64,000 nucleotides of DNA from a virus (taxonomy: Duplodnaviria; Caudoviricetes), in IMG/VR virus record IMGVR_UViG_3300020192_000279, positions 43,016-107,015 of that record; one strand, given 5' to 3'. Below, in pieces: positions 32,361-51,401 of this stretch. Each line of letters begins with the position of its first letter. The stretch's first letter is position 1. A program made the position numbers and the translations under genes. Under the pieces are notes generated by a model that had not been told where the DNA came from, ran no database searches, and saw nothing but the letters and a program-made list of their open reading frames with translations.

Positions 32361-32558
32361 TTAGTCAATGATTTCGAATTTGAATCCATATACTGTTTCA
32401 AGTTCTTCAACGATAGCAATGAGGTATGGTATGGCAGAGTCATTGCCGGCCCTAACTAGATTGTTTTGAACAATAGCCATATCAATTAAGATACGTGCCT
32501 CTAGACCATAGTTACGAAAGTCATCTTCATCTGCAATACGTAGAAATGTAGTATTCAT
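32361..32558 (-). CDS. Small hypothetical protein (tandem paralog B)
   Basis: RNYGL...NLV.AGNDSA..Y..AIV.ELE..YGFKFEI.D shared. Confidence 0.55.
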   Translation of the reverse strand: MNTTFLRIADEDDFRNYGLEARILIDMAIVQNNLVRAGNDSAIPYLIAIVEELETVYGFKFEIID

Positions 32559-33616
32559 TCTTGCGTGACGGGCTTGCCTTTTTCATCCTTAACCTTTTCA
32601 AGGACAATTTTCCAGATATTGTCTATCATCTTCTTCTTATCTAATAGACCAAAGACAATACCAGTTAAGGTCTTGGGCGTGTTTGCCTGGATCCAGAGAG
32701 CTTGCGTCTTGCGATCTGCATCAGGGATGCGACCGGCAATATCCTCAGTCTCGATACGCAGCTTGTCGTGCATAGTCTGCACGTAAGCACGGATGTCGTC
32801 GAAGTCCTGTCGAATACCATGAGGCAATTCGCGAAGCGTTACGCCGTATTCCTTGCCACGGATAAGCTCGATGACCCCTTTCGGGCTCATGTAATTCAGG
32901 AGTCGGTGGACACGCAGGTAGGCCGGTGATTTGACTTTAACACGACGACCGCTCGCAAAGCGAGCGACGTATCCCTCGTGGTTATCCTCGAAAGGAATGT
33001 CGCCACGTAAGTCCAGATTGTAGCGGCTGGGCCGCTTAAAGCCACACTTCTCTGCGAGTTGATCAACTCGCATGGGGTGCCATTCCGTTCCGCCGTGCTC
33101 GATAACACCGAGTAGACACAGGAACGTCTCGCCCTTGTAATCTACGACGATCCGGTTCTCTGGATAGATAATCTCGAAGATTGGCGTGCAGTCCTTCGGC
33201 AGCAATTGCGTAGGATAGTTAGCATTCAAGATCTGAGTGCCCATCTTTGCCTGATTCGACTCCATGCTACCGGGAGTCGCCAGTGACCACGACACGTCAC
33301 CCGTCAAGAAGTATCCGATACCACATGAGCCGTCCACCTTCTCCGCGATCTCGATCTCTTCATCCCACGGAAGATTCTCCACCATCGTCTCGGAGACCTC
33401 TCCGAGGTTGAAGAACTTCGGAAAGGGGCGAGCCACTACCGTTCCATCGGAACGGAAGATGATACCGCGAGCCTGACGGTTCGTGTCGTTCCAGAGACCC
33501 TGGATGTGGGTGTCCTGGGTGTATTTGAAGATCGCGAGGTCGCCCGTTCGTGAGACGTTGACACGACCTTCGTGTACCTCGCGAAGGAGCTTCTGATAAA
33601 GTATGTAGTCTTTCAC
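32555..33616 (-). CDS. T4 Rnl1-type RNA ligase
   Basis: ARG, RPF.KFFN, EKVDGS, FE.I.P.NRIV, EG.V, KVK. Confidence 0.92.
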   Translation of the reverse strand: MKDYILYQKLLREVHEGRVNVSRTGDLAIFKYTQDTHIQGLWNDTNRQARGIIFRSDGTVVARPFPKFFNLGEVSETMVENLPWDEEIEIAEKVDGSCGIGYFLTGDVSWSLATPGSMESNQAKMGTQILNANYPTQLLPKDCTPIFEIIYPENRIVVDYKGETFLCLLGVIEHGGTEWHPMRVDQLAEKCGFKRPSRYNLDLRGDIPFEDNHEGYVARFASGRRVKVKSPAYLRVHRLLNYMSPKGVIELIRGKEYGVTLRELPHGIRQDFDDIRAYVQTMHDKLRIETEDIAGRIPDADRKTQALWIQANTPKTLTGIVFGLLDKKKMIDNIWKIVLEKVKDEKGKPVTQE

Positions 33617-34845
33617 GCTAGTGCCTTTACTCGTGCCTGCTCCATCTTTTGCTTAATGGCTTCGCCATTTCGTAAATTAGCGAACTGATCGCCCTTCACG
33701 CTGCGGAATCTATCCGCAGCGTCTAGCACAGCTTGACGCTGCGGATAGGGCTTGTCATGAAAGTCGGGTCCACGCCCTTGAGCGTCTGCCTGCGAAGCAA
33801 GCGTAACGCATTCAATTAGCGTGTTGCCGTGAGCGGCCCCTAGTCGATCAAGGAGTCGTACCTTTGTCGTAGACCTCAAGGAATCGAAACGATGGATATT
33901 CAGGTGCTCTCGTGACGTAGCTACACCAACATCTCTGAGTGCGTTGGGCACCTTTAAACGATCACAGAATTTATGTACCAATGGTATACCCAACGCCTCA
34001 TGATTGTAATGGTGCGGTAGGTTATCGTCGTCAGTCACAGCCTTTCCTAGGTCGTGGACCAATGCAGCAAACATCGTGGCGTCATCCGCCCCGAGTTCGC
34101 GTGCTCGATCCACGACTAGAAGCGTGTGAACGAATGCGTCACCCTCCGGGTGATGCTTCTCTGGTTGGACTCGTCCAGCCAGAGCAGCGATTTCTGGGAA
34201 CACTTCTGCCAAACATTGGAAGTCTCGAAGTGCCTTAAAGAATGCACTCGGCTTGGCCGAACGTAACGCCTTCATAAGCTCCTCAAAAACACGCTCGCCA
34301 GCGAGCGTGGGAAGCTCGAAACGCAAGAATTGGCACATATTCACAAGCTCTTGCGTAGGCTGGAGTCCGAGTTGGGCTGCAAACCTTGCAGCACGCAACA
34401 CACGTAACGGATCCTCAACGAAGTGCTCGCTGACGGGAATCAATCTTTTTTCAGCAATTGCCTTACGACCACCGAACGGGTCGATAATCTCACCCGTGAA
34501 CGGTTCCATAGCCATAGCATTAATCGTCAAGTCACGACGGAACAAATCTTGTTCAATCGTGATGCCGCCCGTATCACAGACGAATCCCGTGTGACCAGCA
34601 CTGACCTTGCGTTCCGTACGAGCTAGGGCAATTTCGATACCCGCAACGATAACGATAGGAAAATCCTTACCTACGGCATCGCCTTCTGGAAAGGCTGCAA
34701 GCAACTGCGGCATCGTCAGGCCAATGACGCAGATGTCCACGTCATTCGACTCGCGACCCATTACGTGATCGCGGACGGCCCCACCAACCACAAAGGGGTG
34801 GCCACCAACCGCTTGAATGCGGCGGCAAAGCTCAAGATGTTCCAT
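33613..34845 (-). CDS. cca: CCA-adding tRNA nucleotidyltransferase with HD domain
   Basis: VGGAVRD, D.D, RRDLTINA, EDPLRVLRAARF, HHPEGD, HDLGK. Confidence 0.93.
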   Translation of the reverse strand: MEHLELCRRIQAVGGHPFVVGGAVRDHVMGRESNDVDICVIGLTMPQLLAAFPEGDAVGKDFPIVIVAGIEIALARTERKVSAGHTGFVCDTGGITIEQDLFRRDLTINAMAMEPFTGEIIDPFGGRKAIAEKRLIPVSEHFVEDPLRVLRAARFAAQLGLQPTQELVNMCQFLRFELPTLAGERVFEELMKALRSAKPSAFFKALRDFQCLAEVFPEIAALAGRVQPEKHHPEGDAFVHTLLVVDRARELGADDATMFAALVHDLGKAVTDDDNLPHHYNHEALGIPLVHKFCDRLKVPNALRDVGVATSREHLNIHRFDSLRSTTKVRLLDRLGAAHGNTLIECVTLASQADAQGRGPDFHDKPYPQRQAVLDAADRFRSVKGDQFANLRNGEAIKQKMEQARVKALA

Positions 34846-36893: not shown

Positions 36894-37982
36894 TCACAGA
36901 TCCTTAGAATCACGGAATACGATACCTACAGGGAAACGGGGAATACCGTCGTCCGTGAGGTCGAAGTAGCGGACGGTGAGCTTCTTACCGATGTACTTTT
37001 TGCGTTCCGCATAAAAGCGGCGACGTTCGTCCATGGTAACCTTCATCGTGCATTCGAAAAGTCCACCATTACTTTGACAGGTCCACACGACGCACGCTGT
37101 CATCTTGCCACGACCGTCACGAGCATCGACAACGAGGAATTCGGCATCTTGGAATTCCTTTACCTTTAGAAGCTCAGAAGAGCGATGTCCCCAAAGGTAT
37201 TGTCCATGACCAAGACGTAGAATTGCACCTTCATAGCCCTCTTGGACGAATTGACCGTACAGAGTCATTAGCTCTGTGTGTGATGCGACTTTAAAAGTAG
37301 GTACACGTTTGACATTTTTGAATTCCGCGATCGAATTCAGCTTGAGTGTACGTTCTTCAAAAGTGAGTGTTTCATCGCCTTCGTCACAAACCGGCACGTC
37401 ATAGACGTTGTAGATAATCTGCTCACTGCCGGGCTTCCACTTTTTGACGAGCGAAGTCACCGTTTGGCATGATAGGCCATGATAGTAAAGCTCGCCATCA
37501 AGAACCATGTCGCGGGGCAACCATTTTTCAAGCTGCTCTTGAATGGGCGGCATCTTGTATGGCTTACCCGATCGCGAGGTCAAAGCGACCTTATTGCCTT
37601 CCCATTCAGCTAAACAGCGAACGCCATCTAGCTTGGGTTGCACGAAAGCTGGGAAAGAGACATTCTTCTTCTTATCCTCGTACTTATGAGCTAACATCGG
37701 AAGGCGTAGCTCCTCCTGAGCCCCTTCCTTCGTCTCACTGTACTTTCTCTCGACTTTAAAGGTCCAGAGTGATTGAGCCTCCGCCTCGGCTTGTGCATCA
37801 GGCGTCGTGGCGTTCGAACGTCCTACGTTCTTCGAGATAGCCTTTTTCAAGCTTTGTTGAAGCTTACCGCCAACCTGACCATACTCGGTCATGATCGTGT
37901 CGCCTTTGGCCCAAACTCGCCATTGACGGAGATCTCCGCCCTTGGCTTTGTGATAAAGGACAGGAAGTTTCATATCCATCAA
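36894..37982 (-). CDS. ATP-dependent DNA ligase with N-terminal WGR-like domain
   Basis: PMLA, QPKLDGVRC, LDGELY, EG.ILR, LLKVK, PRFP. Confidence 0.92.
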   Translation of the reverse strand: MMDMKLPVLYHKAKGGDLRQWRVWAKGDTIMTEYGQVGGKLQQSLKKAISKNVGRSNATTPDAQAEAEAQSLWTFKVERKYSETKEGAQEELRLPMLAHKYEDKKKNVSFPAFVQPKLDGVRCLAEWEGNKVALTSRSGKPYKMPPIQEQLEKWLPRDMVLDGELYYHGLSCQTVTSLVKKWKPGSEQIIYNVYDVPVCDEGDETLTFEERTLKLNSIAEFKNVKRVPTFKVASHTELMTLYGQFVQEGYEGAILRLGHGQYLWGHRSSELLKVKEFQDAEFLVVDARDGRGKMTACVVWTCQSNGGLFECTMKVTMDERRRFYAERKKYIGKKLTVRYFDLTDDGIPRFPVGIVFRDSKDL

Positions 37983-39067
37983 TGACGCTCGGTTCCGCCC
38001 TTACGGGTCAGGTAATCATGACTAATGACTTTGAAAATACGACGCTTCGGATGCGGGTCAAGATCTCCCTTACCCCAAGTCTCTTCGTCCATTGGACGGA
38101 CAACTATACCCTCTTTGATTTGACCGGGCGACAATACACTGTCGCCTTCCGCTAGTTCACACAATTCCTTGAAAGTGTAAACAGTAGGGTTTATGTGCGG
38201 GACGATCGGTAATTCGCATTGAACGCAGATTTCCTTGACGTACGCCCAAGGCAAGTAAGTGCCGTTGATCGCGATGTCGAAAATACGCCACGCCTTTTCT
38301 TTGCCGTAAGTCAAATCCTGTACGCCAGGACCGAAGATCTCGCCGAAGACGAGAATGGAGTCGATGAGCACGTGACCATCGGCGTGTCCTGGTACGCTCG
38401 TGGTTGTCAGGATATCGTACAAGGTATTCAGGCCCTTATCGTAAAGCTCGAAAGGTAGACCGTAAACTCCGGCCTGCTCAATCTTACGTTGCGTGCGGTG
38501 AGTACCAGCAACCTTTTCAAGGTAGTCATTGCCTATCTCGTTCGAGGAACGAACACAGCCCACGCGGCTATTCGTGCCATGAATCTTTTCCGTCAGAATC
38601 AACGGTGCTCCGTAATTCAATTGATCCGGGAAGTTGCGAAGATTCTGAATATCCGTGTACGTATGGAAGAGCGGATGATTGCGGACCATCTGTCCCAGCG
38701 ACGTACTTTCAGGCTCTTCGTATTTTTCAATGCCAAGATATTCGGCCAGATTCGTTCCAATAGGATCATCACCCGGCACAGGAGCGAGGAAGCCAAAACT
38801 AGGAGCACCGCGTAGCTTCACAGCCTTGACGCGACCCTTAGTGGCGTCTTTCTTCCACGAAAGATAGTCGCGTACACCCCAGGCAATAGCCCAGTCCTTT
38901 GGCACCATAACATCGGGCGGAACGTGGACAGCTAGCTGACCGACAACATAATTGCCCTTGCCAGAGACAATCTGCCAACCACCAACTTTCACAATTTCAA
39001 GCTTATCCGCATTAGGATGCGGATGTACTTCGTCAATCTTTACAACAAGTACAAGAAGATCACTCAT
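37979..39067 (-). CDS. RNA ligase, DRB0094 family
   Basis: HPNADKLE, KLRG..S.G, TEKIHGTN, FGEIFG, EG.V, K.IS..YL. Confidence 0.9.
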   Translation of the reverse strand: MSDLLVLVVKIDEVHPHPNADKLEIVKVGGWQIVSGKGNYVVGQLAVHVPPDVMVPKDWAIAWGVRDYLSWKKDATKGRVKAVKLRGAPSFGFLAPVPGDDPIGTNLAEYLGIEKYEEPESTSLGQMVRNHPLFHTYTDIQNLRNFPDQLNYGAPLILTEKIHGTNSRVGCVRSSNEIGNDYLEKVAGTHRTQRKIEQAGVYGLPFELYDKGLNTLYDILTTTSVPGHADGHVLIDSILVFGEIFGPGVQDLTYGKEKAWRIFDIAINGTYLPWAYVKEICVQCELPIVPHINPTVYTFKELCELAEGDSVLSPGQIKEGIVVRPMDEETWGKGDLDPHPKRRIFKVISHDYLTRKGGTERH

Positions 39068-39836
39068 GGTTAAGCCGGGCTCGGATTTCAGCGAGCGTAG
39101 TTGTGTTGTATTGCATGCCGTTTGAGTAAACAAGTTGGAAGGCACAGGAGTTGACCTGTTCCCACGAAGCTTCCTGTCGCATCACAAATGACTTGCCGAA
39201 ATCGGCTTCGTAGACAGCGATCAGTCCCTTGGCAGACTTCTTGCTGAAAGCCCCCTTGTTTGTCTTGGGGTCTTTGAAAATGGCTCGTTCCTCGCCGTTA
39301 ACCACACCGAAGGTAGCCTTCATCGCGAAACCAAATGTGTCGCGAGTTACATACTGATATGTGTAGCTGCCGATACCAGCGACCCAATTTACGCTTGCGA
39401 AGCCCTTAGCCTTAAGCTCTTGATTGATCTTTCTTGCCAAAGGCAAGGTGATGCTGTCGCCGTAGATTAGACCGATGTGCGGATCCAATTCCTTGAAGCC
39501 TGCGGCATTCGTGACGCCGCCAAAAAGCTCCCAAAGTACTTCAACAGATCCCTTGAATTCCGGGCTGCTGGGTGCGGCGTCAGGGTCTCCGCAAATGATC
39601 TCCAATGGCGTCTTGGGACTTGAGTCCGGTCGAATCACCAACTTGCCATTTCGGGCCATGATTTCCTCCCGCAATTGCGGGAGGATGGTAGTTAGAACAC
39701 CCCAGTAGTCCCAAGTGTCTGATACGACACTAACGATGCCTGTAGGGTAGACACTAAGTAGACGCTTGAAATACTCTAATTCGCCATAAAAGAGTTTTTC
39801 GTGTTCGTTAAGAGTGCGAATTCGTTTTCGAGTCAT
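39060..39836 (-). CDS. NAMPT/Namat, C-terminal half
   Basis: YPTGIVSVVSDTWD, VIRPDS, IYGDSIT, GIGSYTYQY.TRDT, KDPKT, KKSAKG. Confidence 0.9.
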   Translation of the reverse strand: MTRKRIRTLNEHEKLFYGELEYFKRLLSVYPTGIVSVVSDTWDYWGVLTTILPQLREEIMARNGKLVIRPDSSPKTPLEIICGDPDAAPSSPEFKGSVEVLWELFGGVTNAAGFKELDPHIGLIYGDSITLPLARKINQELKAKGFASVNWVAGIGSYTYQYVTRDTFGFAMKATFGVVNGEERAIFKDPKTNKGAFSKKSAKGLIAVYEADFGKSFVMRQEASWEQVNSCAFQLVYSNGMQYNTTTLAEIRARLNHE

Positions 39837-39847
39837 GGTAATGTATT

Positions 39848-39876
39848 AGTATACAACGGAGTGTTCGGAATGTCAA
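39848..39876 (-). promoter_or_regulatory. Sigma70-type promoter dedicated to the C-terminal NAMPT half
   Basis: TTGACA-N17-TATACT in the 55-bp gap. Confidence 0.8.
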
Positions 39877-39891
39877 GCAAAAGATAACTTA

Positions 39892-40725
39892 TCAAGGAAG
39901 CGATCTAATGAACTTCCAAGTTTGTGACGCTTCATTCCACTCTTCTTCTACAGAAGTGATGATGGCTGCCCTATCCATTGATACTAAAGAGGCGACAGAA
40001 TGTTCGGTTGCCGCCACGCTACATCCGACAAGCTCTTTGTCGGAGTCGGCACCGTAATACTGTTCAAGGAAGTCAATCGCTGGAACGGTGTCCGATCCGA
40101 CAAAGGACAGAAGGTGAGCCGCACCACTCGTGCAGGCAGCTTCGATACCGGGCATGCCACGGAACGAGAAGTCGTGACCTTGAAAGGAAGTAAAACCAAC
40201 GTCAGCTCCGGTCTCTTTCGCCGCTCGCACAAATTCCTTCTTGTATTCTGCCGCGATCGTGGCTGACGTGCAGGGTTGCCAGAGCGTCGCAGACAGAATC
40301 GTTTCGAGGTAATTCGGGAGCCAGAAGCCGCTCGGGTGCGTGTTGTGAATGACTACCGGAGGTACCCCAATCGGAACTCGACTACCTTCTGGTAGTGCGA
40401 GAATTCGAACCGGCAGATATCCCAGGGCGTGCAACGCCCTGATGTGATCCATCGGGACGGTATCCTTGCCAAGAGCATTGTCTACACGACGCTTGTACCT
40501 CGCGACCACTTCTTCAACAGGTCGCGAGAAGAAGTTGACATTCCACTCGTGAGCAAGAAATCTTTGAATGAAGTATTGAAGGCCAAAAAATACCACGGAT
40601 TCCACTCCGTCGATCCGTGAGGATCGCGGGGTGAAGTTCGAGAAAACGAGGCTCGTGCCCTCGGGGTATTGGCGACGGTGGTCGGCCTTGTACCAGTCGA
40701 TACTATGAAGCGGATGAGTATTCAT
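39892..40725 (-). CDS. NAMPT/Namat, N-terminal half
   Basis: D.YK..H..QYP, FTPR, FFGLQ, LPEG, HDFS.RG, HL.SF.GSD, ATEHSV. Confidence 0.9.
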   Translation of the reverse strand: MNTHPLHSIDWYKADHRRQYPEGTSLVFSNFTPRSSRIDGVESVVFFGLQYFIQRFLAHEWNVNFFSRPVEEVVARYKRRVDNALGKDTVPMDHIRALHALGYLPVRILALPEGSRVPIGVPPVVIHNTHPSGFWLPNYLETILSATLWQPCTSATIAAEYKKEFVRAAKETGADVGFTSFQGHDFSFRGMPGIEAACTSGAAHLLSFVGSDTVPAIDFLEQYYGADSDKELVGCSVAATEHSVASLVSMDRAAIITSVEEEWNEASQTWKFIRSLP

Positions 40726-40792
40726 TGGGAGATGTAGTCATTAAAAGATGCACAGATCATGAACAATATTACAGGAAGACAAAACAACATGT

Positions 40793-41572
40793 TCATAGTT
40801 TTAGTTGCCTAATCATCGGGTCGTCAAATGTTGCAAAACTGTCCGTGCAGTAGATTCGCTCGATCTTGCCGTCAAAGACGGCAAGGCCATTCGAGAAGAT
40901 CGCATGCGTTACGACCAAGTATACCTTTGCCTTCGGAGAACACAAGTGAATTGCTTTCGCGATCTCTGTAAAAGTGCGACCGCCATCGCAAAGGTCATCT
41001 ACAATCACGAACTTGTCGTATATGCGAATGTTAGTGGAGGTGGTGTTTATTTCCGTGCCAACAACCTTGCCGTTTTCGTCACGACGCTTGCTGCATTGCA
41101 CTAAATCGCAGTTGAGTGGGATTTGATGGCTAACCCAGGTCGCAGCACCGGCATCGGGCGACACGAAACAAACGTTGTCGTCGCCAATATCCTTGAGAGC
41201 CAAGTCCACAAGTCGGATCGTGGGCTCGACAATACTGGCATTGGGCAGATATTTCTTCAATGCCACAGGATTGTGCGGCTTGACGACATCGATCGTTTCG
41301 AGGCGAAGGCTACACAAGTAATCGCATACAATCTTGATGTCGATAGCCTCGCCAGGGGAGAAGCGGCGGTCACAGCGAGCAGCCAGCAAGTAATTGACTT
41401 GAAGGTGCCTGATCTCCGGGTGAATCTCCAAAACCTGAGCGATCAAGAAGAGGTCGTCGAAATTACGGATACTAGCACTAAGTGTAGTGGAGCCCTTGAG
41501 ATCCATCGTTGACACAATGTGCTTGTGACCATCGGGATAGTGAGAGACCTTGAAATCGGATAGATTAACCAT
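40793..41572 (-). CDS. Ribose-phosphate pyrophosphokinase-like (NARP1 Adps candidate)
   Basis: YPDG, AR.DR, PH, SPDAGA, K.RD, IVDDLCDGG.TF, VTHAIFS.G; adjacent to NAMPT homolog. Confidence 0.88.
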   Translation of the reverse strand: MVNLSDFKVSHYPDGHKHIVSTMDLKGSTTLSASIRNFDDLFLIAQVLEIHPEIRHLQVNYLLAARCDRRFSPGEAIDIKIVCDYLCSLRLETIDVVKPHNPVALKKYLPNASIVEPTIRLVDLALKDIGDDNVCFVSPDAGAATWVSHQIPLNCDLVQCSKRRDENGKVVGTEINTTSTNIRIYDKFVIVDDLCDGGRTFTEIAKAIHLCSPKAKVYLVVTHAIFSNGLAVFDGKIERIYCTDSFATFDDPMIRQLKL

Positions 41573-41597: not shown

Positions 41598-41686
41598 TGG
41601 TGCGGGTGACAGGCATCGAACCTGCAAGCCTTTTTAGGGGCACGGGATCCTAAGTCCCGCGTGTCTGCCAATTCCACCACACCCGC
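41598..41686 (-). tRNA. tRNA-Leu(TAG)
   Basis: Cloverleaf, long V arm, CCA. Confidence 0.95.
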
Positions 41687-41722
41687 GTGTGTTCCTCTAT
41701 TATACGCTACTTCGTAGCGTTG

Positions 41723-42082
41723 TCAAGCTTGAAACTTCATCTTCTTGAATTTTAACTGCTTGCTTGTTTTGCGTCTATGGCAATTAGCACACAACACGTC
41801 ACACTTATCTAATTCCTTCTGGAGTCTTATTAGAGAGAATTTCCTATGCTTTATAGCACGCGATATTGTTGTCTCTTTTGTTTTCCTGTTTCTGTGATCA
41901 AATTCCAATACAATGGGGTCATTTTCACCACAAACAATACAGAATTTGTCTTTTAAGTATTGCCAAACGTACATGCGATTGCGTTGTATTACATCAAGTT
42001 GCCTTTTACGATATTGACGTTTATTGGCATTGTAATGAGCTTGCTGTGCCGCCAATTGTTTTACTCTGTTTTTGAATGGCAT
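41723..42082 (-). CDS. HNH endonuclease
   Basis: C..CGE..P.VLEFDH, KC.VLCANCHR. Confidence 0.88.
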   Translation of the reverse strand: MPFKNRVKQLAAQQAHYNANKRQYRKRQLDVIQRNRMYVWQYLKDKFCIVCGENDPIVLEFDHRNRKTKETTISRAIKHRKFSLIRLQKELDKCDVLCANCHRRKTSKQLKFKKMKFQA

Positions 42083-42084
42083 AT

Positions 42085-42171
42085 TGGTGGCCTCGGTCGG
42101 ACTCGAACCGACACGCTTTTTAGGGCACTAGATTTTGAGTCTAGCGGGTCTGCCAATTCCCCCACGAGGCC
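42085..42171 (-). tRNA. tRNA-Leu(CAA)
   Basis: CTAGA-CTCAAAA-TCTAG, CCA. Confidence 0.95.
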
Positions 42172-42177
42172 GCTATA

Positions 42178-42699
42178 TCAAACATTGTGTTGGCAGATGA
42201 TGGCATCAGGGAAATAGTGTTCGATAATGGCCAAGTAAATACCCCACTCTCCGCCGCCAAGGCCGCATCCCATCTTGAAAGGGAAGTAAAGAGGAACACC
42301 CTTGTCAAGTTTCGGAGCAAGCGACTCAAAGGCTCTTGCCGTGGCATCGTAGCTAGTCATTCGCCACCTAGAGGAAATGTAACCTTGGCCAAAAACGTTT
42401 GCGATTTTGAGGTGCTTGTGATTAGGTACCGTCCACATGAACGTTTTGCCAAGCATCACGTCGTTAGCAAGTTGCTCTTGACAAAGAATGTCGCCGTCTT
42501 CTGTAAGATAACCACTGAGACGTTCGTTATCTACTGACTTAATCCACTTGGCAATACAATCTTGATATTCTTTTTCAAGACCTGGGAACTTCTTGGCGAG
42601 TGCGTAGGCGATGCCGCCCCCCATGATGCCTTGGCAGTTGACCTGATGGAAGAGAACGCCATCCGTGAGAGCAAGCATGTCCTGTTTGATGATCTTCAT
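42178..42699 (-). CDS. Macro domain protein (Poa1p-like)
   Basis: HQVNC.G.MGGGIA, N.FGQ, P..GCGLGGG.W; leaderless promoter. Confidence 0.9.
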   Translation of the reverse strand: MKIIKQDMLALTDGVLFHQVNCQGIMGGGIAYALAKKFPGLEKEYQDCIAKWIKSVDNERLSGYLTEDGDILCQEQLANDVMLGKTFMWTVPNHKHLKIANVFGQGYISSRWRMTSYDATARAFESLAPKLDKGVPLYFPFKMGCGLGGGEWGIYLAIIEHYFPDAIICQHNV

Positions 42700-42744
42700 G
42701 TTCTATAGTATCACGCGACTGTCACGTTGTCCAGTAAAAAGTAC

Positions 42745-42819
42745 TGGTAGGTCCAGATCGACTTGCACGATCCTTTACGAGTTAAAAGCTCGTTACTTCG
42801 CTTTCTAAGTTTTGAACCC
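42745..42819 (-). tRNA. tRNA-Lys(TTT), atypical D and T loops
   Basis: ACGAG-CTTTTAA-CTCGT; T loop TGCAAGT; CCA. Confidence 0.8.
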
Positions 42820-42830
42820 ACAATTTAATT

Positions 42831-42905
42831 TGGTATCCCTACTAGGACTTGAACCTAGATTGTCGGATTAGAAATCCGATGTTCTGTCCTTTGAACTATA
42901 GGGAC
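42831..42905 (-). tRNA. tRNA-Arg(TCT)
   Basis: Cloverleaf, CCA. Confidence 0.93.
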
Positions 42906-42911
42906 CTGTAG

Positions 42912-43002
42912 TGGTGCGTCCACCAGGATTCGAACCTGGGATGGTGATTGCTCACGTTTGATTAAGAATCAAATACCTTCGGCCTACTCGGTACATGGAC
43001 GC
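42912..43002 (-). tRNA. tRNA with CTT (Lys) anticodon and long variable arm
   Basis: TTTGA-TTCTTAA-TCAAA; V arm GTGA-GCAA-TCAC; CCA. Confidence 0.85.
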
Positions 43003-43029
43003 ATTCATATGTTGCGTGTAATTTAATGA

Positions 43030-43105
43030 TGGTAAGGGCGGCGAGACTCGAACTCGCGGTCTGCTGGTTCCAAACCAGCCGGAATAACCACTATCCTACG
43101 CCCTT
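43030..43105 (-). tRNA. tRNA-Pro(TGG)
   Basis: Cloverleaf, CCA. Confidence 0.9.
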
Positions 43106-43118
43106 ATCAGTGTTGTTT

Positions 43119-43196
43119 TGGTCCGCAGAGGTGGAATTGAACCAGACCTACCTCTCGGTTATCAGCCGAGTGCAAATACCGTTATGCTTCCTGCGG
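43119..43196 (-). tRNA. tRNA-Ile(GAT), bulged T stem
   Basis: CTCGG-CTGATAA-CCGAG, CCA. Confidence 0.8.
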
Positions 43197-43204
43197 AATT
43201 GTTT

Positions 43205-43291
43205 TGGCGGAGAGGTAGAGGAATCGAACCCCGGACCTTGCGATCCCCCCGGCATTCAAAACCGGCTGCCGACCATTCAGCGGTACCTTCC
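43205..43291 (-). tRNA. tRNA-Ser(TGA), 8/4-type fold
   Basis: 8-bp bulged acceptor, 4-bp T stem, long V arm, G73-CCA. Confidence 0.8.
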
Positions 43292-43300
43292 GTTTGTTTG

Positions 43301-43432
43301 TTAGCGACGCCGCTCCAACCAGCGAATGATGTCGTTTCCAACATGCTCGCCACGTTGACGCAGTGACTTGAAATAGGAAAGAGCTTCGGCAACGCTCATT
43401 TTTCCAGACTTGACGTTTTCACGAATTCCCAT
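43301..43432 (-). CDS. 43-aa hypothetical protein (not in ORF track)
   Basis: MGIRENVKSG...WLERRR*, directly after the 43435 stop. Confidence 0.45.
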   Translation of the reverse strand: MGIRENVKSGKMSVAEALSYFKSLRQRGEHVGNDIIRWLERRR

Positions 43433-43434
43433 TG

Positions 43435-43830
43435 CTATATATCTCTTGTGAATTTGACGTTTTTGATTAGCTCGCCAATTCCTTGGTCGAGTAGATCTTG
43501 GAATAGCTTCTTCTGTCCATGTTCATCATACACTTTATCGGCGTAGTGGTCAAGCCAAGAATAGAATTTTTCGTCTTGCTCGACATCAATCGTACGGCCA
43601 GTCAAGTGCTCGAAATAGTCACTGTCAACGCCTTTTGCGGGGCGAATGCGAATGATAATCTCACCTTTTCGAGTAGTTATGCCAGACGGAGACTTGGGCG
43701 GTTTTGGATTTTCGACACCAGATGGAATGACAATATGTCCTCCACCAGATAGCAGAATACGCTCAGCTTCCGCCTCTCGTGCCGAAAGACCGCGAGCCAA
43801 CTCGTCTTTGGTGCGTCGTAAGTGTGTCAT
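43435..43830 (-). CDS. Hypothetical protein
   Basis: Coupled ORF. Confidence 0.55.
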   Translation of the reverse strand: MTHLRRTKDELARGLSAREAEAERILLSGGGHIVIPSGVENPKPPKSPSGITTRKGEIIIRIRPAKGVDSDYFEHLTGRTIDVEQDEKFYSWLDHYADKVYDEHGQKKLFQDLLDQGIGELIKNVKFTRDI

Positions 43831-44108
43831 GATTGTTTTGCATAGCTATTTTCGATAGCGAAAAACAGTTCGTATTCGGGATTTGCGTCGTCCCATGACC
43901 ATTTACAGGCATAAAACCCACCCGTTGAACAACGATAGTTTTTTTTGTCAGTACTCAAGATGATTTCAATGAGTTCTTCTGCCGAATCTCTCAGTCTTTC
44001 GACTGACGGAGAAGTATCTTCGTGCCAGTAGGTCCAGCCTTCCTTCACCATGTGGTTATGAATAGCTTGAAAGTTGATGCCGTCAAGCAACTTGCTTTTG
44101 ATGTCCAT
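43827..44108 (-). CDS. Hypothetical phage protein
   Basis: F..IH..M....W.Y...STGGF pattern. Confidence 0.55.
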   Translation of the reverse strand: MDIKSKLLDGINFQAIHNHMVKEGWTYWHEDTSPSVERLRDSAEELIEIILSTDKKNYRCSTGGFYACKWSWDDANPEYELFFAIENSYAKQS

Positions 44109-44277
44109 CAGTTTCTCTCAAGCCACTCGATCAAGGTTTTGAGAAGGAAGAGAAGACCGACCATGCAAGCACACCACCACATGATATTGACGATGACGAA
44201 TACCCAGAAAGCGATTTTGAACTTCATGTCTCTATGATATCACTTTTCAAGCGAAGTGCAAGTATATTTTCAGATTT

Positions 44278-44367
44278 TGGCGGTAGGTGTAGGATTCGAA
44301 CCTACGGGAACTTTCGCTCCGTTCCCTTAGCAAGGGAGTGCATTCAGCCAGACTCTGCCAACCTACC
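44278..44367 (-). tRNA. tRNA-Ser(GCT)
   Basis: Cloverleaf, long V arm, CCA. Confidence 0.92.
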
Positions 44368-44368
44368 G

Positions 44369-44445
44369 TGGAGCCCAGTATAGGATTTGAACCTATGAAT
44401 TACCGATTTGCAATCGGCAGCATTGGACCGCTCTGCCAACTGGGC
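44369..44445 (-). tRNA. tRNA-Cys(GCA)
   Basis: Cloverleaf, U73, CCA. Confidence 0.93.
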
Positions 44446-44454
44446 ATTGTATAG

Positions 44455-44526
44455 TTCCTCTTCCACGATTCGAACGTGGACTAAGTGCTTCAAAGGCACT
44501 TGTGCTAGCCATTACACCAAAGAGGA
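44455..44526 (-). tRNA. tRNA-Gln(TTG), no encoded CCA
   Basis: AGTGC-CTTTGAA-GCACT. Confidence 0.9.
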
Positions 44527-44527
44527 G

Positions 44528-44602
44528 TGGTGTCGGATCCAGGAATCGAACCTGGACCAACTGACTCAGAATCAGTTGTGCTGCCAATTACACCAACCCG
44601 AT
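44528..44602 (-). tRNA. tRNA-Gln(CTG)
   Basis: ACTGA-TTCTGAG-TCAGT, CCA. Confidence 0.9.
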
Positions 44603-45021
44603 TATGTTGGCCACACGTATGGCAATGACTGATCTTCTTGCCAGCCATATTTACCATAGAATACTATATCCTTGCGGAGTAGATTTGATCTATGAGAGGC
44701 ATGAAAAGTAGGATCACCAAACCAAATTGGCATTGCTACATCTTGTGTTGGAGCAAAATGCATGTTGTTTTTATAGCCGCGTTTAATCCACTCCTCAATC
44801 ATCGTATTCATATACAAACGCAGAGCGTTTGGGTATGGACGCCACATGATCGCGGCAGGGTGATTTCTCCAACCCTTTTTTGATACGCGACCTTCAAGTG
44901 CCCAAGAGTCGTCAATCGCCATTAGCAATTGAAAAGCCTCAACACGTTGTTTACCAAGTCTACGATAGTCTAGTGTCTCTGCCGAGGCCCTAAAGTCTGG
45001 AAATGGTAAAAAGGTCTGCAT
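44602..45021 (-). CDS. Pyrimidine-dimer DNA glycosylase-like (MSMEG_6728 family)
   Basis: MQTFLP, LD..RLGKQRVEA.Q, HPA..MW, H.SH.SNLLRKD. Confidence 0.9.
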   Translation of the reverse strand: MQTFLPFPDFRASAETLDYRRLGKQRVEAFQLLMAIDDSWALEGRVSKKGWRNHPAAIMWRPYPNALRLYMNTMIEEWIKRGYKNNMHFAPTQDVAMPIWFGDPTFHASHRSNLLRKDIVFYGKYGWQEDQSLPYVWPT

Positions 45022-45072
45022 CAGAGTCCGCTAAAAGTTGTTGAATGGATGGCGACGTTATAGCCCGTATAC

Positions 45073-45450
45073 TTAGAGAGTGTACTCCCAGCTACCGTCA
45101 GAAGCAAGCACTTTCAAGGATCTGACAGCAGTTGTCATAATCGTGCCGTTTCCATTGCCAAGCCGATTATTGGGGTGCCAAAATTCTATATACATGTCAA
45201 TGCCAAGCCATCCTTGCTTGAGCATAGAGCCTCCCCACGTTGAGCCAGCAATCGAAGCCTCTGTCGGTTCCTCGAAATAGAAGCCGCCCTCGATCATGTA
45301 CTTTCCGTTTTCAAGCACTTCGATCCTGTATAGCGTGTTCCGAGTTTGAGCCTCAAGACAGGTCCCAACCGCCAGCTTATCTAGCTGAACGCCGCCATTC
45401 TTCTTGGACTCTTCGATGTTACGAACGATATCAGGATGTAGATTTGTCAT
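45073..45450 (-). CDS. Hypothetical protein
   Basis: T.NT.Y, GST.GGSM. Confidence 0.6.
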   Translation of the reverse strand: MTNLHPDIVRNIEESKKNGGVQLDKLAVGTCLEAQTRNTLYRIEVLENGKYMIEGGFYFEEPTEASIAGSTWGGSMLKQGWLGIDMYIEFWHPNNRLGNGNGTIMTTAVRSLKVLASDGSWEYTL

Positions 45451-45459
45451 TGTATTTTG

Positions 45460-45530
45460 CAGGGGCCGTAAGAATCGAACTCACGTCTATTGATTTGGAA
45501 TCAACTATATTACCACTATACGAGACCCCT
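45460..45530 (-). tRNA. tRNA-Trp(CCA), no encoded CCA end
   Basis: Cloverleaf. Confidence 0.9.
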
Positions 45531-45534
45531 ATTG

Positions 45535-45840
45535 TCATTTCCAGAGAGATAAGGTCTTGAAAAAGGCGTCCCATTCAGGACGCGGACAGAAGACTGCACC
45601 CACTACTCGATTGCCGAGAGCACTTTCCGTCATAACTACATTGTCGTCCGCAAGATCGAGTGCCTTTTCAAGCCCGTCTCGCGAAACGCTACACGTGACC
45701 TTCTTGAAAGATGAGTCAAGCCACAGCTTCATATTTGACGAACTGCCATATCGTAGGTAGCACGCGAGCGAAGCGTGAGCAGCGATGTTGACAGCGTGAC
45801 CGACGGGCACGTCGTCAAGAATCAGGATGTACATCTTCAT
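45535..45840 (-). CDS. PTH2-like peptidyl-tRNA hydrolase
   Basis: KMYIL....G.A....AHAS, W....KKV. Confidence 0.7.
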   Translation of the reverse strand: MKMYILILDDVPVGHAVNIAAHASLACYLRYGSSSNMKLWLDSSFKKVTCSVSRDGLEKALDLADDNVVMTESALGNRVVGAVFCPRPEWDAFFKTLSLWK

Positions 45841-45885
45841 CGTAAGTTCTTTCTTTTCAAGCTCGTACGCTATTCGCGAAGAGTG

Positions 45886-45960
45886 TGGTAGGCCCAACAG
45901 GATTTGAACCCGTATCGTCGGTTCCGTAGACCGAAGTTCTTCCAGTTGAACTATGAGCCC
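45886..45960 (-). tRNA. tRNA-Arg(ACG)
   Basis: Cloverleaf, CCA. Confidence 0.93.
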
Positions 45961-45971
45961 GTGTTGTTATT

Positions 45972-46047
45972 TGGGGTGGATAAGGGGTTTCGATCCCCCA
46001 CTTACAGCGTCACAAGCTGTCGTGCAGGCCACTACACTATATCCACC
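45972..46047 (-). tRNA. tRNA-His(GTG)
   Basis: G-1:C73, CCA. Confidence 0.93.
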
Positions 46048-46051
46048 GTGC

Positions 46052-46438
46052 TTATTCTTCGACTGCCTTCGCAAAAGCAGCCAGTCCATCTTGTGTGTCG
46101 ATGTGATAGCAGTAGGGTACTCCATCTTCACCGAACCAAGTCTCGGGCGGACGACATGCACAGTCTCCGCCCGCTCTTGCTACTTGGCCGTGTGTCTCGA
46201 AAAGGCGTTTTGCCGTAGCCATTGTCATCGGTTTATACGGCGGCTTCCATTCCGCGACCCAATACCGCCAAGCTCGCTTAACGATCCATCCCCGTTTTTC
46301 AAACCATCCAAAGATGTCGGTTTTTACTTCCCCGGCTTGTAATAGCCTAAAGGGAAAAACGGGGATGCCCGCTTGTTCCAATTCTCTGCGACAGACTTCG
46401 TCGCACATTTCTTTGGATTGACCGGCAAGATTACGCAT
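46052..46438 (-). CDS. Hypothetical phage protein
   Basis: NLAG, EL..AGI, RAW.YW, YHIDT..GL. Confidence 0.65.
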   Translation of the reverse strand: MRNLAGQSKEMCDEVCRRELEQAGIPVFPFRLLQAGEVKTDIFGWFEKRGWIVKRAWRYWVAEWKPPYKPMTMATAKRLFETHGQVARAGGDCACRPPETWFGEDGVPYCYHIDTQDGLAAFAKAVEE

Positions 46439-48371: not shown

Positions 48372-48460
48372 TGGCTAGGGAGGTAGGTTACGATCCTACA
48401 GTTGAGATTGCTCTCGCTACATTAACAGTGTAGTGCGTCTACCAGTTCCGCCACCCCCTA
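48372..48460 (-). tRNA. tRNA with GTT (Asn) anticodon and long variable arm
   Basis: CTACA-CTGTTAA-TGTAG; V arm GAGA-GCAA-TCTC; G73-CCA. Confidence 0.85.
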
Positions 48461-50924: not shown

Positions 50925-51401
50925 TCAATCTCCTATGGAGTCAACAAAAATCTGCAAAATCTCGATTGCTTGCGAAACGTGCTCGTCCGTCAGGCCCGTT
51001 TTCATGCTTGTTTGCACGAAAAATGGAAGTTGTTCGGGTAGCATGTCAGAATCGTCATCGAAAATCACGAATTGCGGATCTTGAAGTCCGCAGACATCAA
51101 GCCATCGTTTGATTTCGTCTCCACGCATCGGGCCTAGCGTATCCGTTTTCGAGTCAACGCGGAGCCCAAATTTTCCAAGACGCTCCTGCAAAATTGCAAC
51201 GGAACGTGGCGAATGTCGCCAGGAAGACGACAGAACGATTGTGTGCGTGTAAGAGCGGGCCAGCCTAGCAAATCTCTCAACGCATTTATCGTCTAATGCA
51301 CCAATGCAGGTGCCTTTCGCGGATGCCGCACGAACAGCATCAAAGTTATTCAGAACGCCGTCAACGTCTAGAAAAAAAACAATCATGTTTTGGTATGCCA
51401 C
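50925..51401 (-). CDS. HAD domain protein (Swiss Army Knife RNA-repair type)
   Basis: FLDVDGVLN, IVLSSSWR, RG.EI..WL, FVI.DD..DM, GLT. Confidence 0.88.
   Translation of the reverse strand: MAYQNMIVFFLDVDGVLNNFDAVRAASAKGTCIGALDDKCVERFARLARSYTHTIVLSSSWRHSPRSVAILQERLGKFGLRVDSKTDTLGPMRGDEIKRWLDVCGLQDPQFVIFDDDSDMLPEQLPFFVQTSMKTGLTDEHVSQAIEILQIFVDSIGD

What the first reader, a model, noticed from the sequence alone, without database searches (positions are those of the whole stretch)
42912..43002. tRNA-Lys(CUU) on a class-II body with long variable arm
Seen: CUU anticodon, Ser/Leu/Tyr-style D arm (CCGAGTAGGCCGAAGG), V arm GTGA-GCAA-TCAC, A73. Known: bacterial long V arms are normally limited to Leu, Ser, Tyr and Sec, and tRNA-Lys is the target of PrrC and PARIS. 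Inference: a nuclease-evading Lys tRNA, or a Leu-charged tRNA that misreads AAG.
Basis: partly seen in the sequence, partly recalled or inferred. Interest (0 to 1): 0.7.

Follow-up and report, generated by a model that had tools for sequence, protein, structure and literature searches.

The report
Phage lysine tRNA with extra arm
A large phage carries an intact lysine-reading tRNA built on the long-armed body normally reserved for leucine, serine and tyrosine tRNAs, and it proves to be one member of a large, apparently undiscussed family of such phage tRNAs that may help phages survive bacterial enzymes that cut tRNAs.

Summary
Window 42912-43002 (minus strand) is a tRNA gene (Rfam 49.9 bits) with anticodon CUU, A73, encoded CCA, a Ser/Tyr-type D arm and a 17-nt variable region (4-bp stem, GCAA loop). 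It lies in a 26-tRNA array of a T4-like phage fragment that also encodes RNA ligases, a CCA-adding enzyme and an RNA-repair HAD domain.

It is not a one-off. A second long-armed tRNA (GUU, G73) lies at 48372-48460. One pattern scan found 53 IMG/VR stretches with long-armed Lys or Asn tRNAs. Relatives are annotated in cultured phages (Bas33, phiKZ, GAP31, X1, T5-like).

Across the family the discriminator and acceptor pairs follow the anticodon (Asn G73 22/22; Lys G73 0/33). The extra stem and the 15-48 pair covary. AAG is the phage's commonest Lys codon and aligns with Lys in homologues. So Lys charging is likely, and Leu or Ser charging unlikely.

Long arms are enriched in tRNAs for Lys, Asn, Thr(UGU) and Ile. 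The first three are the known targets of the PARIS nuclease AriB. Published Bas33 rescue data indirectly suggest that such tRNAs work and resist AriB.

Best reading, unproven: a functional Lys tRNA whose altered body evades tRNA-cutting defences.

The parts
42912..43002 (-). tRNA gene, anticodon CUU (reads AAG, Lys), 91 nt with encoded CCA. It has a class-II-like body.
   Evidence: ARAGORN. Rfam tRNA 49.9 bits. Family model R1 105.4 bits. Sequence read.
42964..42966 (-). Anticodon CUU. The 36-41 stretch reads U-A-A-U-C-A.
   Evidence: The 36-41 motif equals the E. coli AriB recognition and cleavage site quoted in PMC12409363 section 22.
42940..42956 (-). Variable region of 17 nt: C, 4-bp stem GUGA/UCAC with GCAA loop, then CAUC.
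   Evidence: In 66 distinct family members, 206 of 220 stem cells are paired, against 119.7 +/- 5.7 in shuffles, with 49 different stem sequences.
42975..42995 (-). Three-nucleotide connector plus a Ser/Tyr-type D arm (3-bp stem, G13-A22, enlarged loop with G18 G19).
   Evidence: Rfam alignment. D-arm neighbours. Relatives with the same connector.
42915..42915 (-). Discriminator A73.
   Evidence: In the family, A or U occurs in 33 of 33 long-armed Lys tRNAs and G in 22 of 22 long-armed Asn tRNAs.
48372..48460 (-). Second long-armed tRNA of the same phage. Anticodon GUU (Asn), Leu-type D arm, variable region C GAGA GCAA UCUC AACU, U1-A72, G73, CCA.
   Evidence: ARAGORN. R1 44.8 bits. Relative in Pseudomonas phage phiPsa374.
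41598..50417 (-). tRNA array that holds both genes. ARAGORN makes 23 calls on this strand, and Rfam adds two (43122-43196 and 49295-49368). No canonical-size Lys or Asn tRNA is present.
32555..34845 (-). Context: Rnl1-family RNA ligase (32555-33616) and CCA-adding enzyme with HD domain (33613-34845).
   Evidence: PHROGs. Pfam PF09511, PF01743, PF12627, PF01966.
37979..39145 (-). Context: second RNA ligase (PF09414 plus an OB fold).
50925..51401 (-). Context: HAD domain of 'Swiss Army Knife' RNA-repair proteins, next to the array.
   Evidence: Pfam PF18143, 83.4 bits.

Best explanation
The gene encodes a working tRNA that is charged with lysine and reads AAG, the phage's commonest Lys codon.

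The parts that LysRS and the ribosome read are standard: a U33-CUU-A37 loop, A73, CCA, and a normal T arm and acceptor stem. The core is rebuilt on a class-II plan, with a 3-bp D stem, an enlarged D loop and a short Tyr-like hairpin that starts at position 45.

I infer that this rebuilt core is what selection acts on. It alters the surface between the D loop and the 3' strand of the anticodon stem. Host tRNA-cutting defence nucleases that need a class-I body then bind or cut it poorly, while the phage keeps translating. The AriB nuclease of PARIS is one such enzyme. It cuts between 40 and 41 and, in the authors' AlphaFold 3 model, also holds D-loop residues 16-17.

Shown here:
- The gene and its fold.
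- Membership of a large phage family.
- Isotype-consistent identity features.
- Standard meaning of AAG in the phage's genes.

Inferred:
- Lys charging.
- Nuclease resistance.
- The hairpin as the cause of that resistance.
For: 1. It is a real, well-folded tRNA. In the family the variable stem covaries (206/220 cells paired against a shuffle mean of 119.7, maximum 145 of 1000). The tertiary 15-48 pair also covaries (G-C 59, A-U 5 of 66).

2. Identity features follow the anticodon.
- Long-armed Asn: G73 in 22/22.
- Long-armed Lys: A73 in 22, U73 in 11, G73 in 0 of 33.
- Long-armed Thr(UGU): U 7, A 2, as in short Thr.
- Long-armed Ile: A in 8/8.
- U1-A72 occurs in 11/22 long Asn and 0/33 long Lys.
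- G1-C72 with C2-G71 occurs in 6/9 long Thr.

3. Codon use. AAG 1045 against AAA 555 in 103 ORFs. The 17 AAG sites of the ribonucleotide reductase align with Lys in 49% of homologue residues, as AAA does (48%). Leu, Ser and Tyr are not among the four commonest aligned residues.

4. This is the only Lys tRNA found in the 107-kb record.

5. Long arms are enriched in a particular set of tRNAs. Among 760 tRNAs in 52 loci, ARAGORN gave long Lys(UUU) 25, Asn 23, Lys(CUU) 12, Thr(UGU) 8, Met 6 and Ile 7. Leaving out the pattern-selected Lys and Asn, ANN readers were long in 19/195 against 12/384 for other class-I types (odds ratio 3.3). Thr was long only with UGU (9/32, against 0/20 for GGU and CGU).

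6. Lys(UUU), Thr(UGU) and Asn(GUU) are the AriB targets (PMC12409363 abstract and sections 20, 22, 23).

7. Indirect experiment. E. coli phage Bas33 (HildyBeyeler) has an 87-nt long-armed Thr(UGU) as its only Thr tRNA in the 28-kb stretch examined. It also has an 86-nt long-armed Asn and no Lys(UUU). The paper reports that T5 tRNA-Lys(UUU) alone rescues Bas33 from PARIS, whereas T7, with no tRNAs, needs Lys plus Thr.

8. Of 73 locus-by-anticodon cases with a long-armed tRNA, 17 keep a canonical-size copy with the same anticodon alongside. The two copies share only 7-15 of 17 anticodon-arm bases. They look like two maintained lineages, not drifting duplicates.

9. The phage carries two RNA ligases, a CCA-adding enzyme and an RNA-repair HAD domain around the array.
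Against: - No charging, expression or cleavage data exist for this tRNA. No RNA run was listed for it.
- The host is unknown, so no particular nuclease can be named.
- The window tRNA keeps the exact U36-A-A-U-C-A41 site and U16 that AriB uses in E. coli tRNA-Lys. Any resistance would have to come from the body alone, which nobody has tested.
- T5 itself evades PARIS with class-I-size tRNAs (Thr 75, Lys 78, Asn 78 nt). A long arm is therefore not needed for evasion.
- The enrichment is not exclusive. Long arms also occur in Cys 3, His 2 and single Ala, Pro, Glu, Gln, Trp, Gly and Val tRNAs. Arg(UCU/CCU), which also read ANN codons, were never long (0/41).
- The loci are phylogenetically related and were found with a pattern that fixes U39, C40 and CAUC. 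Counts for Lys and Asn are biased and the p-values are rough.
- The Bas33 argument is my inference.
- The variable arm is Tyr-like (3-4 bp with 3-4 unpaired nt on the 3' side). With A73 and U35, some charging by TyrRS cannot be excluded.
Confidence: 0.5

Rival explanations
1. It is an ordinary codon-supply tRNA-Lys. It is charged with Lys and used for the phage's abundant AAG codons. The long arm has no defence role. It could be a tolerated relic of recombination between tRNA genes. It could also serve something else, such as processing, stability or a handle for a phage RNA enzyme.
For: - AAG is the preferred Lys codon.
- Identity features fit Lys.
- Phage tRNA bodies are plastic in both directions. 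29 of 68 Leu tRNAs in the loci have a short variable region, and Bas33 has 77-nt Leu tRNAs.
- The two long-armed tRNAs of the window carry different D-arm types (Ser/Tyr-like and Leu-like), as recombination would give.
- Both share a GCAA loop, which could be a protein handle.
Against: - A neutral relic would not keep a covarying 3-4-bp stem and a covarying 15-48 pair in 66 distinct sequences.
- It would not recur preferentially in Lys, Asn, Thr(UGU) and Ile.
- It would not sit next to a canonical copy with the same anticodon in 17 of 73 cases.
Confidence: 0.25
2. It is a decoy or competitive inhibitor. The tRNA mainly binds and occupies a tRNA-targeting nuclease and does not decode.
For: - It keeps the U36-A-A-U-C-A41 motif recognised by AriB.
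- The authors of PMC12409363 raise the possibility that some overexpressed viral tRNAs inhibit AriB by competition (section 20).
Against: - A pure decoy would not need CCA or isotype-specific discriminators and acceptor pairs across the family.
- It would not need to be the only Lys tRNA of a phage rich in AAG.
- The two roles are not exclusive.
Confidence: 0.1
3. It is a mis-charging tRNA. A class-II-type synthetase loads it, and it inserts the wrong residue at AAG. TyrRS is the most plausible, then SerRS or LeuRS.
For: - It has a long variable arm, a Ser/Tyr-type D arm and A73.
- The variable-arm geometry is that of phage Tyr tRNAs: 1 nt on the 5' side, 3-4 nt on the 3' side, and a 3-4-bp stem.
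- U35 is shared with tRNA-Tyr. That U35 and A73 are the main TyrRS determinants is recalled knowledge, not tested here.
Against: - Discriminators follow the anticodon, not one synthetase.
- Ser-type features are absent. Ser tRNAs have G73 and a 5-6-bp stem with one 3' nt.
- Leu-type D arm and geometry are absent.
- The phage's own AAG sites are Lys in homologues, and AAG is among its most used codons. Mistranslation would hit its own proteins hardest.
- Bas33 relies on long-armed Thr and Asn tRNAs as its only ones.
Confidence: 0.08
4. It is a decaying or non-expressed tRNA pseudogene.
For:
- Some family members score poorly with general tools. L004 scores 29.8 bits in Rfam, and ARAGORN misses one.
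Against: - All stems are intact, CCA is encoded, and the Rfam score is 49.9 bits.
- Table 3 of the read laying lists no difference inside the gene for run X5, from another study. The 2073-base X5 piece that covers it has 5 differences in all.
- Family-wide covariation argues against decay.
Confidence: 0.04

Closest known systems
[quoted passage not shown] 2024, PMC11464382, passages read; Belukhina et al. 2025, PMC12409363, abstract and sections 20, 22, 23 read)
   Same: Phage-encoded isoacceptors for the tRNAs that a defence nuclease destroys. They sit in a tRNA array. The isotype set is the same as the main long-armed types found here (Lys, Asn, Thr).
   Different: T5's versions are class-I size (75-78 nt). 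They escape through base changes at 39, 41 and 16. The window tRNA keeps U39, C40, A41 and U16 and instead has a class-II-type core with a 17-nt variable region. Its resistance is untested.
Long-armed tRNA-Asn, tRNA-Thr and tRNA-Lys annotated without comment in cultured phages: Bas33/HildyBeyeler, STG2 and other T5-like phages, phiKZ, GAP31, Klebsiella Jiaodavirus, Xanthomonas X1 and XacN1, phiPsa374
   Same: The same architecture: a hairpin of 3-4 bp with a GNRA-type loop after one nucleotide, 3-4 unpaired nt before the T stem, a class-II-type D arm and a cognate discriminator. These are true relatives. X1's Lys(CUU) scores 88.1 bits with model R1.
   Different: Most cultured examples are Asn or Thr. 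Long-armed Lys was seen in X1, XacN1 and a few others. The window phage has under 35% protein identity to any named phage for rIIA and RNR.
Canonical bacterial class II tRNAs (Leu, Ser, Tyr), especially tRNA-Tyr
   Same: Variable region over 10 nt with a stem-loop, a 3-bp D stem with 13-22 unpaired, and an enlarged D loop. The variable-arm geometry matches phage Tyr tRNAs.
   Different: The anticodon and acceptor features are those of Lys. There is an extra nucleotide between the acceptor and D stems.
allo-tRNAs (Mukai et al. 2017, PMC5389517, abstract seen; Krahn et al. 2020, PMC7609411, passages read)
   Same: Long variable arm combined with anticodons of other amino acids. Found in metagenomes.
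   Different: allo-tRNAs have 8/4 or 9/3 acceptor/T-stem structures and Ser or Ala identity regardless of anticodon. This family is 7/5, and the first T-stem pair is paired in 66/66 with five pair types. Its identity features follow the anticodon.
T4 Pnkp/Rnl1 repair of PrrC-cut tRNA-Lys (recalled; abstract of PMC2610378 seen in listing)
   Same: A phage answer to attack on tRNA-Lys. The window phage also carries an Rnl1-family ligase and other RNA-repair domains.
   Different: Repair mends a cut host tRNA. Here the phage brings a structurally different tRNA.

Membership tests
tRNA (Rfam RF00005) | Covariance-model score above the curated gathering score. | tested here: met
   49.9 bits against 29.
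tRNA (Rfam RF00005) | L-shape tertiary pair 15-48 maintained. | tested here: met
   The window tRNA has G15-C48. In 66 family members the pair is G-C in 59 and A-U in 5, with 1 A-C and 1 gap.
Class II (long variable arm) tRNA architecture | Variable region over 10 nt that forms a stem-loop. | tested here: met
   17 nt, with a 4-bp stem and GCAA loop. Stem covariation in the family.
Class II (long variable arm) tRNA architecture | Isotype is Leu, Ser, Tyr or Sec in bacteria. | tested here: not met
   The anticodon is CUU.
tRNA-Lys (bacterial LysRS identity set, recalled: anticodon U35/U36 and A73) | NUU anticodon and A73. | tested here: met
   CUU and A73. Long-armed Lys tRNAs have A or U at 73 and never G (33/33), as against G in 22/22 long-armed Asn.
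tRNA-Lys (bacterial LysRS identity set) | Aminoacylation by LysRS. | not testable with these tools
   This needs a charging assay.
tRNA-Leu | Leu-type D arm with A15-U48, and Leu-type variable-arm geometry. | tested here: not met
   G15-C48. The nearest D arms are long Asn, Ser and long Lys. Leu geometry is (0,1), against (1,4) here. A73 alone is shared.
tRNA-Ser | G73 and a long variable stem close to the T stem. | tested here: not met
   A73 here. Phage Ser tRNAs mostly have 5-6-bp stems with one 3' nt (34/60 have geometry 1,1). This one has 4 bp with four 3' nt.
tRNA-Tyr | A73, G34/U35 and a short variable hairpin. | tested here: inconclusive
   A73, U35 and a Tyr-like hairpin geometry are present. 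G34 and A36 are absent. The synthetase rules are recalled, not tested.
allo-tRNA | 8/4 or 9/3 acceptor/T-stem structure. | tested here: not met
   7/5. An eighth U-G pair is possible in the window tRNA only. The first T-stem pair is kept in 66/66 relatives with covariation.
T5-type PARIS-resistant tRNA-Lys | Escape substitutions at 39, 41 and 16. | tested here: not met
   The window tRNA has U39, C40, A41 and U16 (compared).
Phage long-armed Lys/Asn/Thr tRNA family (defined here) | Match to model R1 with the variable hairpin and an NNU anticodon. | tested here: met
   105.4 bits, though it is a seed sequence. The best-scoring match from outside the seed loci is L160 at 89.4 bits, and X1 scores 88.1.

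The most novel reading that the evidence does not exclude
Phages have evolved, many times and across very different lineages, a second body plan for tRNAs that read A-starting codons (Lys, Asn, Thr, Ile and perhaps Met). This is a class-II-like core with a short hairpin next to the anticodon stem. The cognate synthetase still charges these tRNAs. The new body makes them immune to the anticodon-arm nucleases of bacterial defence systems (the PARIS AriB family, PrrC-like and others). This would break the textbook rule that long variable arms belong only to Leu, Ser, Tyr and Sec. It would also be a structural counter-defence distinct from the point mutations known in T5.
Probability: 0.45. Interest if true: 0.8.

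Novelty: new variant of a known kind. Interest (0 to 1): 0.62.

Why it matters
If the reading holds, three things follow.

First, the rule that bacterial-type long variable arms mark only Leu, Ser, Tyr and Sec tRNAs fails for a large group of phage tRNAs. LysRS, AsnRS and ThrRS must then tolerate an extra arm.

Second, phages would have a structural way, besides point mutations in the anticodon arm, to make tRNAs resistant to defence nucleases. That would help explain which tRNAs phages carry and why they keep two copies with one anticodon.

Third, it is directly testable in laboratory phages that already carry such tRNAs: Bas33 and other T5-like phages, phiKZ, Klebsiella T4-like phages and Xanthomonas X1. 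Annotation pipelines that flag these genes as pseudogenes or odd would need adjusting.

For the single gene in this window alone, the result is more modest. It is one more member of that family.

Tried and rejected
**Recoding of stops or of AAG.**
- Reading TAG, TGA or TAA as sense barely lengthens the longest ORFs.
- AAG, AAA, AAC and AAT sites align with Lys or Asn.
- Rejected.

**Close relatives of the phage.**
- Megablast against phages found nothing.
- rIIB in viral contigs found nothing.
- RNR in viral contigs found only 56-59% relatives.
- Orthologous arrays in sister phages could therefore not be compared.
- Closer RNR homologues (72-76%) exist on contigs of 130-183 kb in other collections. 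I did not fetch those contigs, because the look-up tool is marked closed.

**Pattern scans.**
- One search was too narrow: 3 stretches, of which only L004 held tRNAs.
- One search was swamped by a conserved coding gene, which gave 105 of 123 matches.
- One search was my typing slip and gave 0 matches. It was corrected.

**8/4 allo-tRNA fold.** Possible only in the window sequence and not kept in relatives.

**Expression.** No RNA holder is listed. The contigs I laid are DNA only.

**Isotype-specific tRNAscan-SE scores.** I used nearest-neighbour comparison of acceptor, anticodon stem, T arm and D arm instead. It put long-armed Lys(UUU) tRNAs first overall, but it is crude.

**Literature.**
- Five searches for a description of long-armed Lys, Asn or Thr phage tRNAs found none.
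- Neither did passages of two reviews.
- The word 'variable' does not occur in the main text of PMC12409363.
This is therefore not proof that nobody has described them.

**Host.** Not determined.

Full report
**1. The object**

On the minus strand of window 42912-43002 lies a 91-nt tRNA gene.
- ARAGORN calls it tRNA-Lys(ctt).
- The Rfam tRNA model scores it 49.9 bits against a gathering score of 29.

Read 5' to 3' it has these parts:
- a 7-bp acceptor stem;
- a three-nucleotide connector (Infernal treats the third as an insertion);
- a 3-bp D stem with G13-A22 and an enlarged loop of the Ser/Tyr kind;
- a 5-bp anticodon stem with loop UUCUUAA;
- a 17-nt variable region (C, GUGA-GCAA-UCAC, CAUC);
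- a normal T arm;
- A73 and an encoded CCA.

**2. The setting**

The window is part of a 107,015-base linear virus record, estimated half complete.

The phage has T4-like features:
- rIIA and rIIB;
- an Rnl1-family RNA ligase and a second RNA ligase;
- a DNA ligase;
- a CCA-adding enzyme with an HD domain;
- NAMPT plus a PRPP synthase;
- NADAR;
- a class II ribonucleotide reductase;
- next to the tRNA array, a HAD domain of the 'Swiss Army Knife' RNA-repair proteins.

It is far from any named phage. Protein identity is at most 33% for rIIA and 35% for RNR. DNA of the array occurs in microbial-mat, hypersaline-lake and freshwater metagenomes.

The array spans 41598-50417 on the minus strand and holds about 25 tRNAs. 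A further Met tRNA lies at 60279-60357. The CUU gene lies 6 nt from Arg(UCU) and 27 nt from Pro(UGG). ARAGORN finds no other Lys tRNA in the record.

**3. A second case in the same phage**

Window 48372-48460 encodes an 89-nt tRNA with anticodon GUU (Asn).
- It has U1-A72, G73 and CCA.
- Its D arm is of the Leu type.
- Its variable region has the same layout: C, GAGA-GCAA-UCUC, AACU.

**4. A large family**

Cultured phages:
- Blastn of the two tRNAs against cultured phages hit long tRNAs annotated as Asn, Lys or Thr.
- The hits include Cronobacter phage GAP31, Xanthomonas phage X1, Salmonella phage STG2 (T5-like) and Pseudomonas phage phiPsa374. All have the same hairpin layout.
- The 87-nt Thr(UGU) covers at least 80% of the query in 97 of 101 matching records, nearly all T5-like.
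- An 86-nt Asn(GUU) does so in 570 of 570 matching records. These include T5-like, Klebsiella T4-like and rV5-like phages.
- phiKZ's only annotated tRNA-Asn is also long-armed, 87-89 nt.
- Long-armed Lys occurs in X1 and XacN1.

Uncultured phages:
- One narrow pattern found 53 IMG/VR stretches. The pattern fixes U36 to C40, one C, a gap of 9-16, CATC and the T loop.
- All 56 matches (the 53 stretches plus the window's own locus L001 and X1's L125) sit in tRNA-like sequence with a CUU, UUU or GUU anticodon. One, the second site in L004, is a D-arm-less tRNA-like sequence.
- Many lie on contigs of 100-600 kb.

Cellular genomes:
- The same pattern in one genome for each of 185,579 prokaryote species gave 36 stretches.
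- Thirteen are such tRNAs. Nine of these lie in tRNA arrays typical of phages, and four are single genes in Actinomycetota MAGs.
- So the type is common in phages and rare in cells.

**5. The fold is real**

I built a covariance model from five gapless relatives and aligned its matches. Among 66 distinct long-armed tRNAs with NNU anticodons:
- The four variable-stem pairs are paired in 206 of 220 cells. Shuffles give 119.7 +/- 5.7, with a maximum of 145 in 1000. There are 49 different stem sequences. The alignment is fitted to the model, which favours pairing.
- All standard helices covary.
- The tertiary 15-48 pair is G-C in 59 and A-U in 5.
- The acceptor/T-stem structure is 7/5, not 8/4, so these are not allo-tRNAs.

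**6. Which amino acid?**

Within the family the discriminator follows the anticodon:

| Long-armed tRNA | Discriminator |
|---|---|
| Asn | G73 in 22/22 |
| Lys | A 22, U 11, G 0 of 33 |
| Thr(UGU) | U 7, A 2 |
| Ile | A 8/8 |

Each mirrors the canonical-size tRNAs of the same loci. The first acceptor pairs do the same:
- U1-A72 in 11/22 long Asn and 0/33 long Lys;
- G1-C72 with C2-G71 in 6/9 long Thr.

If one class-II-type synthetase charged them all, one discriminator would be expected.

The hairpin geometry is 1 nt on the 5' side, a 3-4-bp stem, and 3-4 nt on the 3' side.
- It differs from phage Ser tRNAs (5-6 bp, one 3' nt).
- It differs from phage Leu tRNAs (0 and 1).
- It resembles phage Tyr tRNAs.

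The phage's genes use the standard code here.
- The 17 AAG sites in the ribonucleotide reductase align with Lys in 49% of homologue residues, as AAA does at 48%.
- The next commonest residues are Glu, Arg and Gln, not Leu, Ser or Tyr.
- AAG outnumbers AAA 1045 to 555.

I conclude that Lys charging is likely, Leu or Ser charging unlikely, and some Tyr mischarging not excluded.

**7. Why a long arm?**

The distribution is uneven. Among 760 ARAGORN tRNAs from the 52 loci, the long tRNAs outside Leu, Ser and Tyr were:

| Isotype (anticodon) | Long tRNAs |
|---|---|
| Lys(UUU) | 25 |
| Asn | 23 |
| Lys(CUU) | 12 |
| Thr(UGU) | 8 |
| Met | 6 |
| Ile | 7 |
| Cys | 3 |
| Ala | 2 |
| His | 2 |
| Pro, Glu, Gln, Trp | 1 each |

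Leaving out the pattern-selected Lys and Asn:
- Readers of A-starting codons were long in 19/195, against 12/384 for other class-I types.
- Thr was long only with UGU.
- Arg(UCU/CCU) was never long.

Lys(UUU), Thr(UGU) and Asn(GUU) are exactly the E. coli tRNAs cut by the AriB nuclease of PARIS.
- AriB recognises U36-A-A-U, cuts between 40 and 41 and, in an AlphaFold 3 model supported by a U16C mutant, also holds the D loop (PMC12409363).
- The hairpin of the long-armed tRNAs starts four nucleotides from that cut, and their D loops are rebuilt. Steric exclusion is therefore plausible. This is my inference.

There is one indirect experimental hint.
- Phage Bas33 (HildyBeyeler) has only long-armed Thr(UGU) and Asn(GUU) and no Lys(UUU) in its tRNA region.
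- The paper reports that T5 tRNA-Lys(UUU) alone rescues Bas33 from PARIS, whereas T7 needs Lys plus Thr.
- The paper does not mention the arm. I could not open its supplement.

**8. Points against**

- T5 itself escapes with class-I-size tRNAs.
- The window tRNA keeps the AriB site and U16 unchanged.
- The host and its defences are unknown.
- The enrichment is partial, and the sample is biased and non-independent.
- No RNA data were found.
- Phage tRNA bodies vary in the other direction too. 29 of 68 Leu tRNAs have short variable regions.

**9. Verdict**

The gene is a genuine, probably Lys-accepting tRNA of a widespread phage family with a class-II-like body.

I found no description of this family in five literature searches, although hundreds of members are annotated in GenBank.

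Evasion of tRNA-targeting defence is the best current explanation, at about even odds. It is directly testable in Bas33, phiKZ and X1.

Noticed in passing
window 48372-48460 (-): Second long-armed tRNA, anticodon GUU (Asn). It has a Leu-type D arm, U1-A72 and G73, an unusual T loop AUCGUAA, and the same hairpin layout and GCAA loop as the CUU tRNA.
   Followed up: yes
window 49953-50028 (-): Amber-suppressor-type tRNA (anticodon CUA, Rfam 66.1 bits). Yet reading TAG as sense barely lengthens the longest ORFs (top lengths 1607 to 1623 aa), so there is no sign of TAG recoding in this fragment.
   Followed up: partly
window 49191-49268 (-): tRNA (Rfam 51.7 bits) whose anticodon arm is a perfect 5-bp stem with a 6-nt loop UGUAUA. 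ARAGORN instead reads a 4-bp stem with an 8-nt loop (four-base 'gtat'). The decoding is unclear.
   Followed up: no
window 49384-49476 (-): 93-nt ARAGORN-only call with a two-base 'anticodon'. It has a normal D arm and T arm and an internal hairpin, and is not found by Rfam at gathering. It is either a degenerate tRNA or a tRNA-like RNA.
   Followed up: no
window 43122-43196 (-) and 49295-49368 (-): Two tRNAs found by Rfam but missed by ARAGORN. By reading, they are Ile(GAU) and Ala(UGC) with G3-U70. The Ala has an odd T loop, AUCGUCA.
   Followed up: partly
window 39060-41572 (-) and 34859-35428 (-): NAD-related set. NAMPT appears split into two ORFs (39892-40725 and 39060-39836). There is a PRPP synthase (40793-41572) and a NADAR-domain protein. 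This may be a counter to NAD-depleting defences.
   Followed up: no
L217 (Bas33) 6829-6905 and 11791-11867; loci L005-L180 in general: The reverse oddity: class-I-size Leu tRNAs (77 nt). 29 of 68 distinct phage Leu tRNAs in the loci have a variable region under 10 nt.
   Followed up: partly
L124 (Cronobacter phage GAP31) 1236-1322: An 87-nt tRNA-Lys(UUU) whose extra length is a hairpin inserted in the D loop, with a normal 5-nt variable loop. This is a different rebuild of the same tRNA's body.
   Followed up: no
L004 4387-4459 (-): Directly after a 91-nt long-armed Lys(UUU) lies a CUU tRNA-like sequence. It has a variable hairpin, no proper D arm and no CCA (R1 36.6 bits). Neither ARAGORN nor Rfam calls it.
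   Followed up: no
L136, L148, L169, L174, L180, L129, L155, L168 (long-armed Lys): A subfamily of long-armed Lys tRNAs has U73 instead of A73: 11 of 33, against 1 of 27 canonical-size phage Lys tRNAs. The reason is unknown.
   Followed up: no
L184, L186, L187, L193 (Actinomycetota MAGs): Single long-armed Lys(UUU) genes of 85-87 nt that are not in tRNA arrays. They may be cellular or integrated-element copies.
   Followed up: no
window 42913-43030, run X6: In one freshwater run a contig matches both flanks but carries about 349 other bases in place of the 117 that hold the CUU tRNA. In run X5 no difference is listed inside the tRNA gene. The array seems to vary between strains.
   Followed up: no
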